Part shown: piece by piece, positions 1 to 64,000 of the stretch
Layout of the letters: each line of letters begins with the position of its first letter
Position numbering within the stretch: the stretch's first letter is position 1
Origin: Ophelia neglecta
Lineage: Eukaryota
NCBI GenBank assembly: GCA_965285935.1
Contig: OZ260662.1
Span: 14,260,001 to 14,324,000, forward strand
DNA: 64,000 nucleotides
Direction: 5' to 3'
Position numbers: made by a program

Positions 1-3000
1 CACTACTCACATCAGACACAATACCAGTAGTACAGTCTGTACTACTCACAGAACACTTGTCATCAGATACCAGGGAGCTGTCACTGGTTATACATTTGTT
101 TTCCCTGTGTATCAAATGGTTGGTATGGGTGATTTGTTGGGTGCTATGGGTTACCAGTCCATTGCCAGGGGTGAGGGTGATATTACTAGTGTCATCCAAT
201 GTTAATTGTGATGTGTTTAGCGATGCTCTTGTACTTATGCTATAAAACTGCAGTTCATTGTAAATGTTAGATGATTCGTTCAACGAAAAGTTACGATATG
301 TGTTACTGGCCAATCCTGGGCTGCACAAGTGGGTCAGGTCAGGGCTGTGTATCTGGGTCAGGTTTCCCTGTAACTGGGTCAGGTCGGTGTTGGCACACAG
401 GTCCTTGACAAGGGTGTCAGACAGTTTATCATCACTGAGAGTCAGACCCAGGACCTTTCTGCCTGATCTCAGCAGGTGGGCGGCCCTGTCACTGTGTAGT
501 TTACGTTGTTTACACGGGGTGGCGCTGTCAATGTTCTCCTTGGTCTCGTCCAGGGACTCGTGGTGTTGACGGCGCAATCGCCGCAGCTTCATTCCACAAA
601 TCATCTTCAATCTATAAAAATAGAAAAAATAATGAGTTTTTAACATAATTGAAAAACTTCTATACAGTGACATGAGGAGGTGGAAGTAGCCAGAATGTGA
701 GTCAAATTATCTGGTTAATAAGACCAAGGTGTGGGTGCTAAAACAAAACTGTGACAGAAATGAAGATATCATGGCCTGAGGAGATCCGAGTTTGGATAAA
801 ACAACCACTTCTTGTAAATATATCTCACAATGAAATGGGGAGAATGTCTGTTTCCCCAACAATTCTCTTCATCATTATTATACAAGTAAGAAACCTACCT
901 TGTGTGAGGTGATATATGACAAGGTAGATGTGGCAATCAGATGTAGGTATCTGGCCACAACAACCACAAGTTACCAGAAAGAGAAACTTGTCTATTGCTT
1001 TAAGATCTACTACAGTACTGTGACACTCTGCAGACAATAGGTTGGATTGACAGTCTGTAGATAATAGCCAGTAGTCAGAGGTTTTAACCCTAACACTCCT
1101 CTCTGACAGTAGATCAGTGTAACCCCATGTTCTCCCAGACAGTATATCTGTGTAGCCCCACACTGATGTATTGTGGCAATCTAGACTTTTCCCTGAAGTA
1201 TCAACTCCAGAAGGAAACTGACAGTTCACCTCCCGTCTCAGTCTGTCGTTGGTCCAATGTCGCAAAGACCCTCCCACTCCTTTTAACACCCTCCAGAGAG
1301 AAGAACTTGGGAACAGAATGACATTATCCTCATAGACTAGTCACATTAATTGCCTTAGCGACCCCCAGGGGGCAGCAGGCAGGTAACAGAACCCAAATCA
1401 TGCCCTGTGGGACTAAAACCCCAAACACATACATACAATGACCTTCATCTTAACTATAATCCCCATATAGAACTTATTGTCTGGGGATTACACTTATAGC
1501 TCTCTTCTGGTCACTACGGGAGGTAGTAAAGTACTAGAGACCTCTGACACTGTGAACAGCTGCCTCCTAAGAAACCTGTGAGGAGCGTGCATCTTTTTAT
1601 CATAGAGTGCTATATGAAGGAAGTCCCTGTAACATTACATAGAACAGCTGGGCTCTGAAGACAGTTGAGGGTCAGGGCAGAGGGTCCTGTGGTCATTGAA
1701 CCACACATTGTATAACCCTGAATATATACAATGTGATTACTCGCTGATTTACAAACCCACAATAGATGTTACCTATACAAGGGGCCATTGACAACCTGCT
1801 CAGGAGTTTAAACACTGATATGTAAATTACAAACAATCTTTACAGTGAGTTTCTTTGAACCCAGAGCTCAGGTTATAACAGAGATTGTTCCTTATACAGT
1901 TATCAGTCCCTTGACATCAGCTGTCAGACACTAAATCACCAGATGTTCATCCTCACTTTAATACATATCATTCTATGGAGTGAGCAGACACTGATTGAAG
2001 TTGTTGGGCTTTGAGCAGTTTTCCCATCTGTCTATCTACTAAGGATGTAAACTGTCCACAATTCCCACTTTTTTAATCCCTCGTTCACAGATTGACAAGA
2101 TTAACCTGCCAGGTAATAAACAGCCTTAGAATGTGGAAAGCAGAGCACAGAGCACTTAGAGATAATTACTAGATCAATCACAGGTACAAGACATTGAGTG
2201 TGGCCATAGGTCTTATGGGATATAAACACAGGTACAGATAGAGGGGGGAGGGGGGGGGAGGGCAGTTTAATGTGATACCATACATACTTACCCACAAGAT
2301 AATATCATATCAAAAAGCTAACAGAGTATCAAAAAAAGGTCCCCAAATGCTATGTCCAGGTCCACTTTTGGCACACTTCCTCCTATGGTATATAACACTA
2401 CTAAAGTCCTGCTCACCATCTATTACTGAACTAATGTCCTCTGATGGCTGTTTAACCATTAGATCTAAGCCTAGATCTAAGCCATTTGTGGATCCTAAGA
2501 TCTCTCCTCATACAATGTGAGAAGACTTTAAATATGGCTGACAGCACAAGATTTAAACCTCTTTATATCTAAAAGGCAGAAGGTTTACTTAGGAGACAGT
2601 TAAGGGCTTAGCCTTAAGACGGGAGTCATTATCAGCGACAGTCTGATCTCAAGATCTCCGACACACACACACCAAGAGGCAGGTGTGAGGAATTGGATTA
2701 CAAAGGTATGTCAACAGAAATGTATGTTAATATGTCAGGGGCGAGGAAGGCACGCTTATAGCCCACCATCACTGATACATACTGCTGGGGAGGGGGGGGG
2801 GGGGGAGGGGAGGGTGTGGAGAGGAGGGGGGGGGGGGTGGGGTGGAGTGTGGCTGTCTGGGGAGAAGTGGATTACAAAGGTCATATGTCAGGGACGAGGA
2901 AGGCATGCTCATAGCCCAAGATCACTAGGGGGAGGGGAGGTGAGAAGACTGAGAAGATGCAGTCGGTAACAGGATCTACACCAAGATTTAATAACATGAG

Positions 3001-63000: not shown

Positions 63001-64000
63001 ACTATGGTCACTTATCTAGTCCTACCTAAGAGCCATCCATAAGTCAACCAACCAGCATTTCAATACTGTCATTAGAATGCCAAAATGTCCATACTCTTTG
63101 GTACAGCCACGCTGTTCATCAAATATGCACATATTCTAAAGAAGAAAGTTGGAGCCATTCCACAGTAGCATCTTTTAAACATGTCAAAATTGGTATATCC
63201 CTATTTTTTCTCATACATGTATATTGAAGTCTTCATAACATTCCAAGTACATAAATCCAACTGGTTTTTCCTTCCCACAATGTCATTCCTTCCCATTTGT
63301 TATTTTATGCCAGGAAAGCCAGTTCTTCATTTACAAGGCGCTGTAGCTTCAGTTGAATCCATACCAGGACAGTTTATTGGCTTTCAGGTTTTAGTTTCTT
63401 GGTGATTTAAATCCCTGAAACTCCTTATGGATTTCCTCTTTAACACTGTTTAACATGGTTTTCCTCTGTTTTACATGGTTTCCGTTGTCTTTACATGGTT
63501 TCCTGTGTTTACACATGCTGTTTTTCAGTTCCTTGAACACTTGGACTTCCTGGATTTTAAACACAATGCTCCAGAATGCTCTTTCATGTACACTTCTGTT
63601 TTAGGCCAGGTACATGAAGCATGTGATGGTTGCTATGATAATTGATGCAACCTGCCAAAGCGAGTTTCTCAGTGACAAGGTTGAATGGCTAGTCTGGAGA
63701 GAAGAAAAATATGCCATTTTATTGCCTTCACAGATACAGTTGTTTTTACAAAATATAAAAGTGTCTGTTCAGGAGTAAATTCCAAGTAATAAGGAGCTAA
63801 CATGAGTTAAAATGCTTCACTGTTAAGGACATAAATATAATCCTTAAGCATCGCTCGTCAAATGAATCCCTAAATAAACACAGAGGTGTATAATACATTA
63901 TCATACAATGAGGAGGTCTAGAACTAAGATTTGCAATCTTTATATTTCAATTTTATAATTTCAAAGTGTGCTCCAAGATTATCCACTGACCTTTTGGAGA

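What the first reader, a model, noticed from the sequence alone, without database searches (positions are those of the whole stretch)
1..64000. Tandem array of at least three PsGEF-like (C2-PDZ-RhoGEF-PH) units with a ~38-41 kb period
Seen: the + strand order is [first exon of copy A] - spacer - [3' end to first exon of copy B] - spacer - [3' flank of a presumed copy C]. In a two-copy duplication the 5'-to-3' spacer would occur once; here it occurs twice and is colinear throughout, with no unique breakpoint in view. Inference: at least three units. PsGEF is known as a single gene in Drosophila, so an array of a Rho-family GEF would be an unusual dosage or subfunction expansion.
Basis: partly seen in the sequence, partly recalled or inferred. 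Interest (0 to 1): 0.7.

Follow-up and report, generated by a model that had tools for sequence, protein, structure and literature searches.

The report
Tandem duplicated PsGEF-like RhoGEF gene
A roughly 40 kb stretch carrying a protostome-type Rho/Rac exchange-factor gene is repeated head to tail, so the animal has at least two and probably three copies; this is an ordinary kind of gene duplication.

Summary
Window 1-23309 matches 38279-64000 colinearly and in direct orientation, with the offset growing from 38278 to about 40780. There are no N.

The single-copy middle plus the start of the right repeat holds one complete minus-strand gene, copy B. It has 13 GT-AG exons, all phase-compatible, spanning 38889-23976 and 1264 codons by arithmetic. 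Exon-by-exon searches give C2 (weak), PDZ (strong), RhoGEF (two colinear pieces) and a sub-threshold PH. The named full-length relative is an annelid C2-PDZ-RhoGEF protein, so "PsGEF-like" fits by architecture.

Copy A is seen only as the first 604 coding bases, which differ from B at 6 of 604. The spacers are 88-98% identical in a mosaic, which suggests gene conversion.

"At least three units" is not shown. The window ends 667 bases short of where a third copy's stop codon would lie. Exactly two genes would require the array to end inside those 667 bases, so a third copy, at least partial, is likely (about 0.7, my inference).

Assembly artefact cannot be excluded without reads. This is an ordinary tandem duplication of a known gene family, of low to moderate interest.

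The parts
1..611 (-). Copy A: 5' part of the big first coding exon (ATG at 604-602). It runs off the left end of the window.
   Evidence: ORF 2-706. Aligned without gaps to copy B; 6 of 604 coding bases differ, 4 nonsynonymous and 2 synonymous.
612..23309 (.). Spacer A: upstream flank of copy A through to the 3' flank of copy B.
   Evidence: Colinear with 38890-64000. No Pfam family above its cut-off in ORFs of 75 aa or more. No ORF of 50 aa or more shows a coding-type substitution pattern.
23310..23975 (-). 3' flank or UTR of copy B that has no counterpart in the window, because the window ends.
   Evidence: Stop codon at 23976-23978. ATTAAA at 23663-23668 on the minus strand.
23031..23036 (-). 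AATAAA, 940 bases past the stop of copy B. It is kept in the right-hand copy at about 63.72 kb.
23976..24151 (-). Exon 13 of copy B: end of the PH-like region plus the stop codon.
   Evidence: No Pfam hit.
24370..24580 (-). Exon 12: PH-like.
   Evidence: PH_16 E 0.0055, 17.0 bits, below the cut-off of 22.8.
24828..25075 (-). Exon 11: Ser-rich link between DH and PH.
   Evidence: No Pfam hit.
25190..25368 (-). Exon 10: third piece of the RhoGEF (DH) domain.
   Evidence: RhoGEF E 0.00017, profile positions 102-167 of 180.
25633..25838 (-). Exon 9: middle piece of the RhoGEF (DH) domain.
   Evidence: tblastn with P0150 residues 663-777, E 9e-17, spanning exons 8 and 9.
25995..26165 (-). Exon 8: first piece of the RhoGEF (DH) domain.
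   Evidence: RhoGEF E 0.0026, profile positions 1-49; tblastn with P0150.
26407..27025 (-). Exon 7: end of the PDZ domain plus a 200-aa linker.
   Evidence: tblastn with P0006 residues 97-346, 41% identity, E 9e-49, spanning exons 6 and 7.
27149..27336 (-). Exon 6: PDZ domain.
   Evidence: Pfam PDZ E 1.1e-10, 42.2 bits, above the cut-off of 23.2. Best PDB matches are PSD-95, ARHGEF11/12 and RGS12/RGS3 PDZ domains.
27480..27696 (-). Exon 5: end of the C2 domain.
   Evidence: 61% identity over 54 aa to P0150 residues 156-209, inside its Pfam C2 region, E 4e-14.
27909..27977 (-). Exon 4: C2 piece.
   Evidence: GT-AG and phase fit. Only a weak match to P0150 residues 133-145.
28141..28235 (-). Exon 3: C2 piece.
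   Evidence: Pfam C2 E 0.03, 15 bits, below the cut-off of 22.
29154..29212 (-). Exon 2: start of the C2 domain.
   Evidence: 50% identity over 26 aa to P0150 residues 81-106, E 0.002.
37526..38889 (-). Copy B: big first coding exon (ATG at 38882). It encodes 452 codons of low-complexity N-terminal region.
   Evidence: No Pfam hit and no homologue found.
38890..64000 (.). Spacer B: the second full copy of the spacer. It runs to the right end of the window.
46147..47886 (.). Element of 1.74 kb present only in spacer B, with perfect 22-nt terminal inverted repeats that begin and end in TTAA.
   Evidence: Inverted repeat I1. The site in copy A is empty-like.

Best explanation
This is a real head-to-tail segmental duplication with a unit of about 38-41 kb. 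Each unit carries one minus-strand gene of the PsGEF type, about 14.9 kb long, plus about 23-26 kb of non-coding spacer. The protein has a long disordered N-terminus, then C2, PDZ, a linker, a Dbl-homology RhoGEF domain and a probable PH domain. The window shows 1.6 units: the 5' coding end of copy A, a complete and intact copy B, and a second spacer that stops 667 bases short of where a third copy's stop codon would be. Such arrays arise and change size by unequal crossing-over. The mosaic of identity points to gene conversion between units; this step is inferred. The mosaic is 99% in the coding exon, falling to about 92% 3-4 kb upstream, with a second block of 96-98%. By analogy with Drosophila PsGEF, the protein would be a membrane-recruited and scaffold-recruited exchange factor for Rac. 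This too is inferred from the literature and was not tested here. Two gene copies are shown, one of them only by its 5' end. A third is likely (about 0.7) but lies outside the window.
For: The direct colinear repeat is. The gene model has 13 exons, all GT-AG and all phase-compatible with no internal stop. Domains found exon by exon: PDZ E 1.1e-10; RhoGEF E 0.0026 and 0.00017 on colinear profile parts; C2 E 0.03-0.04; PH_16 E 0.0055. tblastn of P0150 hits the C2, PDZ and DH exons in order, with E from 4e-14 to 9e-17. P0150 is a Paralvinella palmiformis hypothetical protein carrying Pfam C2, PDZ and RhoGEF. In the Atlas, the three nearest clusters to P0150 carry C2 and PDZ and the first two also RhoGEF; the commonest phyla are Mollusca and Arthropoda. 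Copy A keeps the reading frame over 201 codons, with 6 of 604 differences. A transposon-like insertion is private to spacer B, and kb-scale indels separate the copies, so the two copies have separate histories. The spacer, including the join from upstream flank to 3' flank, is colinear twice, which a single haplotig mis-join would not produce. PsGEF function and architecture come from passages of PMC2684095.
Against: No reads, depth or flanking sequence were available, so a false duplication in the assembly cannot be excluded. The bodies of copies A and C are unseen and could be truncated or absent. The C2, RhoGEF and PH exon hits are each below Pfam's gathering score, as expected for domain fragments but still sub-threshold. 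No Drosophila or Lottia PsGEF sequence could be compared directly. Searches with the big exon and the linker exon found no longer relatives. The 4:2 ratio of nonsynonymous to synonymous changes in the big exon gives no evidence of constraint.
Confidence: 0.7

Rival explanations
1. There are exactly two gene copies. A single duplication of [gene + about 24 kb upstream flank] ends just beyond the right edge of the window, and no third unit exists.
For: Pairs are the commonest size of tandem duplicate (general knowledge). The window itself shows only 1.6 units and one complete gene.
Against: The right-hand homology runs unbroken to base 64000, which aligns with 23309, only 667 bases from the stop codon of copy B. 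The duplication boundary would have to fall in that 667-base slot, about 3% of the roughly 23.4 kb intergenic stretch. That figure is my own arithmetic and inference.
Confidence: 0.2
2. It is an assembly artefact. Two diverged haplotypes of a single-copy or two-copy locus were laid in tandem.
For: No depth or read data could be examined. The animal is likely a lophotrochozoan, and such genomes are often highly heterozygous (general knowledge). The coding exon is 99% identical between the copies.
Against: There is no N gap at any junction. Divergence of 2-12% with 5370 gap columns exceeds usual allelic divergence. The full spacer, including the passage from upstream flank to 3' flank, occurs twice and is colinear. 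If the false join lay inside gene B, the true genome would still need two gene copies. If it lay outside gene B, it would have to fall in the same 667-base slot.
Confidence: 0.1
3. There is one working gene plus fragments. Copy A, and any copy C, are truncated relics, so there is no functional expansion.
For: Only 604 coding bases of copy A and none of copy C are visible. The 4:2 ratio of nonsynonymous to synonymous changes is compatible with neutrality.
Against: Copy A keeps the ATG, the acceptor-like site and an open frame for all 201 visible codons. High identity around the exon suggests ongoing exchange with an intact partner.
Confidence: 0.15

Closest known systems
PsGEF (protostome-specific GEF; Drosophila CG14045, Lottia LgPsGEF), Higuchi et al. 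2009, PMC2684095
   Same: The order C2, PDZ, RhoGEF is the same, and there is no RGS domain. There is a long non-conserved N-terminus and a linker, and introns lie inside the C2, PDZ and RhoGEF coding parts. The best relatives are protostome proteins (annelid; Atlas clusters from Mollusca and Arthropoda).
   Different: Here the gene lies in a tandem duplication, whereas the paper's passages describe one gene per species examined. Four introns fall in the C2 coding part here, counting the one after the big exon; the paper reports two for Lottia and one for insects. A probable PH follows the DH, but the paper's text never mentions a PH domain (0 occurrences). No direct sequence comparison with a named PsGEF was possible.
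RGS3 / RGS12-type C2-PDZ module and the PDZ of PDZ-RhoGEF/LARG (ARHGEF11/12)
   Same: The PDZ exon matches the ARHGEF11, ARHGEF12, RGS12 and RGS3 PDZ domains at E from 8.5e-10 to 5.5e-8. C2-PDZ-RGS clusters are the next-nearest Atlas neighbours of the annelid relative. The paper proposes an RGS3-like origin of the C2-PDZ part.
   Different: No RGS domain was found in any exon or ORF. The catalytic part is a Dbl-homology domain that is only remotely like any solved one; the best PDB match is intersectin at E 0.18-0.89, which is not significant.
Ordinary tandem gene duplicates or segmental duplications evolving by unequal crossing-over and gene conversion
   Same: The units are head to tail, identity is mosaic with the coding exon most alike, and indels and a transposon insertion are private to one unit.
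   Different: Nothing unusual was seen. The array size is unknown.

Membership tests
PsGEF family | C2 domain N-terminal to the PDZ | tested here: met
   Pfam C2 on one exon gives E 0.03-0.04, below the cut-off. The C2-end exon is 61% identical over 54 aa (E 4e-14), and the C2-start exon 50% over 26 aa, to the Pfam-called C2 of P0150.
PsGEF family | One PDZ domain between C2 and RhoGEF | tested here: met
   PDZ E 1.1e-10, 42.2 bits against a cut-off of 23.2. Its position between the C2 and DH exons is shown.
PsGEF family | Dbl-homology RhoGEF domain C-terminal to the PDZ | tested here: met
   Two exons match RhoGEF profile positions 1-49 and 102-167, at E 0.0026 and 0.00017; each is below the cut-off of 27.6 when taken as a fragment. 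tblastn to the RhoGEF region of P0150 gives E 9e-17.
PsGEF family | No RGS domain (this separates it from RGS3) | tested here: met
   No RGS hit in 12 exon ORFs or in 81 other ORFs of 75 aa or more.
PsGEF family | C2, PDZ and RhoGEF domains cluster with insect and Lottia PsGEF in a phylogeny | not testable with these tools
   No named PsGEF sequence was obtainable. The only indirect evidence is the Atlas neighbours of P0150, which share the architecture in Mollusca and Arthropoda.
PsGEF family | Conserved intron position and phase in the C2 coding region | not testable with these tools
   The positions are given only in Figure 2B of PMC2684095, which is not held. The intron phases found here are listed.
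PsGEF family | GEF activity towards Rac | not testable with these tools
   Shown for Drosophila only (passages). It would need a bench assay.
   PH_16 E 0.0055, 17.0 bits against a cut-off of 22.8, on exon 12 only. Exon 13 has no hit. The exons were not joined, so the whole domain was never scored.
Tandem array of three or more units | Two or more head-to-tail units | tested here: met
   1.6 units are in view, in direct orientation and colinear.
Tandem array of three or more units | A third unit with a gene body | not testable with these tools
   It lies beyond base 64000. No eukaryotic genome collection is on hand.
Tandem array of three or more units | Copies are real in the genome (depth, spanning reads) | not testable with these tools
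   No read data are available.

The most novel reading that the evidence does not exclude
The window is an inner slice of a larger array, three or more and possibly many units, of intact PsGEF paralogues in a lophotrochozoan. The units would be kept alike in their coding parts by gene conversion. That would be a lineage-specific expansion of a Rac exchange factor which in Drosophila is a single gene needed for mushroom-body axon branching.
Probability: 0.45. Interest if true: 0.4.

Novelty: new member of a known kind. Interest (0 to 1): 0.27.

Why it matters
PsGEF is described as one gene per genome in the species studied so far. Its gain and loss have been tied to mushroom-body-type brain structures (PMC2684095, passages). 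A multi-copy locus in a lophotrochozoan would add a case of copy-number change to that story. It would also give paralogues in which divergence of the N-terminus or linker could be studied. Otherwise this is a routine tandem duplication. Its main practical value is as a warning for annotation and for copy-number calls at this locus.

Tried and rejected
Searches that led nowhere:
- The search for homologous proteins in 'longer' mode found 0 hits with the big exon and 0 hits with the linker exon.
- The Atlas search with the C2-end exon gave no usable hit.
- phmmer against PDB with two DH exons gave only non-significant rows, with intersectin at E 0.18-0.89.
- The representative search with the PDZ exon was crowded by multi-PDZ proteins. 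Of the 150 rows listed (838 had E up to 0.001), I ran Pfam on 10, and only P0150 had the full architecture.
- Pfam on 81 further ORFs of 75 aa or more gave two sub-threshold hits that I take as chance: DUF5981 at E 0.0044 and NPB13-l at E 0.0016.
- Rfam gave 0 matches at gathering score.
- A screen of spacer ORFs for a coding-type substitution pattern covered 29 gap-free ORFs of 50 aa or more. None was convincing apart from the known exon.

A reading I dropped in part: I first thought a two-unit duplication explained the double spacer just as well. Working through the geometry showed that this needs the array edge to fall in a 667-base slot.

A mistake I corrected: I first placed the stop codon at 24006. 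One search puts it at 23976-23978.
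Full report
**1. The observation**

The window has 64000 bases, no N and no soft-masking. Self-blastn gives a colinear chain of direct matches. It starts at 1-6163 = 38279-44376 (91.9% over 6237 columns) and ends at 22439-23309 = 63134-64000. The HSPs are 82.7-93.2% identical. The offset grows from 38278 to about 40780 because the right-hand copy carries more inserted DNA.

A global MAFFT alignment of 1-23400 against 38279-64000 has 20175 matching, 1701 mismatching and 5370 gap columns. Homology reaches both ends of the window. 23310-38278 occurs once in the window. 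The repeat, its period and the lack of a visible breakpoint are therefore real and far beyond chance.

**2. What is in the unit**

All recognisable coding sequence is on the minus strand. I read the sequence and checked boundaries by script and translation. Copy B has 13 exons:

- 38889-37526 (ATG at 38882)
- 29212-29154
- 28235-28141
- 27977-27909
- 27696-27480
- 27336-27149
- 27025-26407
- 26165-25995
- 25838-25633
- 25368-25190
- 25075-24828
- 24580-24370
- 24151-23976 (stop at 23978-23976)

Every intron is GT-AG. Every donor phase equals the next acceptor phase. No exon has an internal stop in its frame. The exon lengths add up to 3795 bases, that is 1264 codons plus the stop; this is my arithmetic, made after correcting the last exon.

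**3. Domains, exon by exon**

- PDZ on exon 6: E 1.1e-10, 42.2 bits, above the cut-off.
- RhoGEF on exon 8 (profile positions 1-49, E 0.0026) and exon 10 (positions 102-167, E 0.00017).
- C2 on exon 3: E 0.03-0.04.
- PH_16 on exon 12: E 0.0055.

All but the PDZ are below Pfam's gathering scores. That is expected for fragments of a domain, but it remains a limit of this evidence.

Independent support comes from a relative. The phmmer search of 1.84 billion representatives with the PDZ exon found 838 proteins at E up to 0.001, of which 150 were listed. The list was dominated by multi-PDZ proteins. I ran Pfam on 10 of the 150. One of them, P0150 (849 aa), has C2 (75-176), PDZ (245-309) and RhoGEF (668-837). 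One search names it as a hypothetical protein of the annelid Paralvinella palmiformis.

tblastn of P0150 on the window hits the following, in order:

- the C2-start exon: 50% identity over 26 aa
- the C2-end exon: 61% over 54 aa, E 4e-14
- the PDZ exon: 54% over 63 aa, E 3e-14
- DH exons 8-9: E 9e-17
- DH exon 10: only weakly, E 0.17

The unnamed fragments P0002, P0006 and P0020 are closer in the PDZ (77%, 72% and 65%). P0006 also covers the C2-end exon and the linker exon, at 41% over 315 columns.

In the Atlas, the three nearest clusters to P0150 carry C2 and PDZ and the first two also RhoGEF, with Mollusca and Arthropoda as the commonest phyla (scores 0.88-0.90, a lead only).

**4. The big exon**

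The big exon (452 codons, low complexity) has no Pfam match and no homologue among longer proteins. It belongs to the GEF gene in copy B for two reasons. Its phase-1 donor fits the phase-1 acceptor at 29212. Its last residues, together with exon 2, line up with the first strand of the C2 domain of P0150.

A polypyrimidine tract ending in AG sits 7 bases before the ATG. The exon may therefore be the first coding exon rather than the first exon.

**5. The copies compared**

Over the 604 coding bases of copy A that are visible there are no gaps and 6 differences, 4 nonsynonymous and 2 synonymous. That is 99.0% identity.

Identity then falls steadily upstream:

- 97.6% in the next 500 columns
- 96.6% for the following 1 kb
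- about 94% at 2-3 kb
- about 92% at 3-4 kb

A second block of 95-98% identity lies at A 16.8-21.2 kb. Elsewhere identity is 88-95%.

The right copy has private insertions at 45977-47976, 49319-49805, 52669-53667 and 61463-62233. The first of these contains a 1.74 kb element with perfect 22-nt terminal inverted repeats that begin and end in TTAA, set into a site that looks empty in copy A.

A near-neutral substitution ratio combined with far lower divergence than the flanks is what gene conversion or recent unequal exchange would give. That is an inference. With only six differences the ratio itself says little.

The spacer shows no other gene:

- 81 ORFs of 75 aa or more gave only two sub-threshold Pfam rows.
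- Rfam gave nothing.
- None of the 29 gap-free ORFs of 50 aa or more shows third-position-biased change.

**6. How many units?**

The window shows one complete gene (B), the 5' end of another (A) and a second spacer.

But the second spacer stays homologous up to base 64000, which aligns with 23309. That point is 667 bases from the stop codon of copy B.

If the ancestor had a single gene and there are now exactly two, the unit boundary must lie in those 667 bases. The intergenic stretch is about 23.4 kb (38278 minus 14914), so this slot is about 3% of it. A boundary inside gene B would imply that the ancestor already had two copies, hence three now.

Weighing this against the fact that pairs are the commonest tandem duplicates (general knowledge), I put a third unit, at least a partial one, at about 0.7. 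This number is my own judgement and not a tool result.

An AATAAA 940 bases past the stop of copy B is kept in the right-hand copy. This is compatible with a third 3' end but proves nothing.

**7. Artefact?**

There are no N at any join. Divergence is above usual allelic levels and includes kb-scale indels. The whole spacer, including the passage from upstream flank to 3' flank, is present twice. A single haplotig mis-join does not give that pattern unless the join falls in the same 667-base slot. Without reads I still leave this rival about 0.1.

**8. Comparison with the known**

I read passages of Higuchi et al. 2009 (PMC2684095) by term search, and its listing and the start of its abstract. 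From these:

- PsGEF is defined by C2, PDZ and RhoGEF domains.
- It is found in insects and in the limpet Lottia, and is absent from the examined deuterostomes, a cnidarian and nematodes.
- It has some conserved intron positions.
- In Drosophila it interacts genetically with Rac1, and its RhoGEF domain induces Rac-like membrane ruffling.
- The paper's text never mentions a PH domain (0 occurrences).

Passages of PMC5499878 list PsGEF among RhoGEFs found in most protostome clades.

The gene here meets the architecture test. Orthology to a named PsGEF could not be tested, and the conserved intron position could not be checked because the figures are not held.

On whether such an array is in print:

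- 'PsGEF' occurs in 15 papers.
- 'protostome-specific GEF' occurs in 4 papers.
- 'PsGEF' together with 'tandem dupl' occurs in 0 papers.

I saw no report of a PsGEF array. The library covers only Creative Commons PMC papers and bioRxiv.

**9. What stayed unchecked**

- The organism was not identified. A protostome, probably a lophotrochozoan, is inferred from the relatives.
- No eukaryotic genome collection was on hand. The prokaryotic genome scan was not used because it cannot bear on this question.
- Supplements are closed. Additional files 1-2 of PMC2684095 (PsGEF sequences and alignment) and supplementary tables S1-S3 of PMC5499878 (per-clade repertoires) could bear on membership and on copy number in molluscs.

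**10. Verdict**

This is a real-looking tandem segmental duplication carrying an intact PsGEF-type RhoGEF gene. Two copies are shown, one of them only by its 5' end. A third is probable but unproven. It is a new member of a known kind, of low to moderate interest.

Noticed in passing
window 46147-47886: A 1.74 kb element with perfect 22-nt terminal inverted repeats, each ending in TTAA, is present only in the right-hand spacer. The matching site in spacer A (about 7985-8010) looks empty. TTAA flanks recall piggyBac-type DNA transposons (recalled, not tested), and no transposase ORF was found by Pfam.
   Followed up: partly
window 38890-38910 (minus strand), and 612-632 in copy A: A polypyrimidine tract ending in AG lies 7 bases before the ATG of the big exon. 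An untranslated 5' exon probably lies further upstream, in the stretch that is 94-98% alike between the copies.
   Followed up: no
window 16787-21250 and 57226-61462: A block of 95-98% identity sits inside an otherwise 88-95% identical spacer. It includes ORFs at 17422-17598 and 17591-17755 with no difference at all between the copies. It could be a second conversion tract or a conserved regulatory region. No Pfam or Rfam match was found.
   Followed up: partly
window 26407-27025 (minus strand), linker exon: Short motifs in the otherwise unconserved linker recur in the unnamed fragments P0002 and P0006 and, more weakly, in the annelid P0150. Examples are a W-x-P-E/H-L/I-S-V/I-I segment and an S/K-x-W-x-x-E/D-I-S segment. 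They may be docking motifs.
   Followed up: no
window 25190-25368 (minus strand), DH exon 10: At the place where canonical Dbl-homology domains carry a P-x-Q-R motif in conserved region 3 (recalled from memory), this gene reads P-I-K-H and the annelid relative reads P-K-Q-H. The DH domain is also only remotely like any solved one.
   Followed up: no
window 4806-5036 and 43035-43254; 33958-34340; 48852-49077: Several minisatellites are present. A 29/83-bp repeat occurs in both units. A 119-bp repeat (3.3 copies) lies in intron 1 of copy B. A 101-bp repeat (2.2 copies) occurs only in spacer B. G-rich runs are scattered through both spacers.
   Followed up: no
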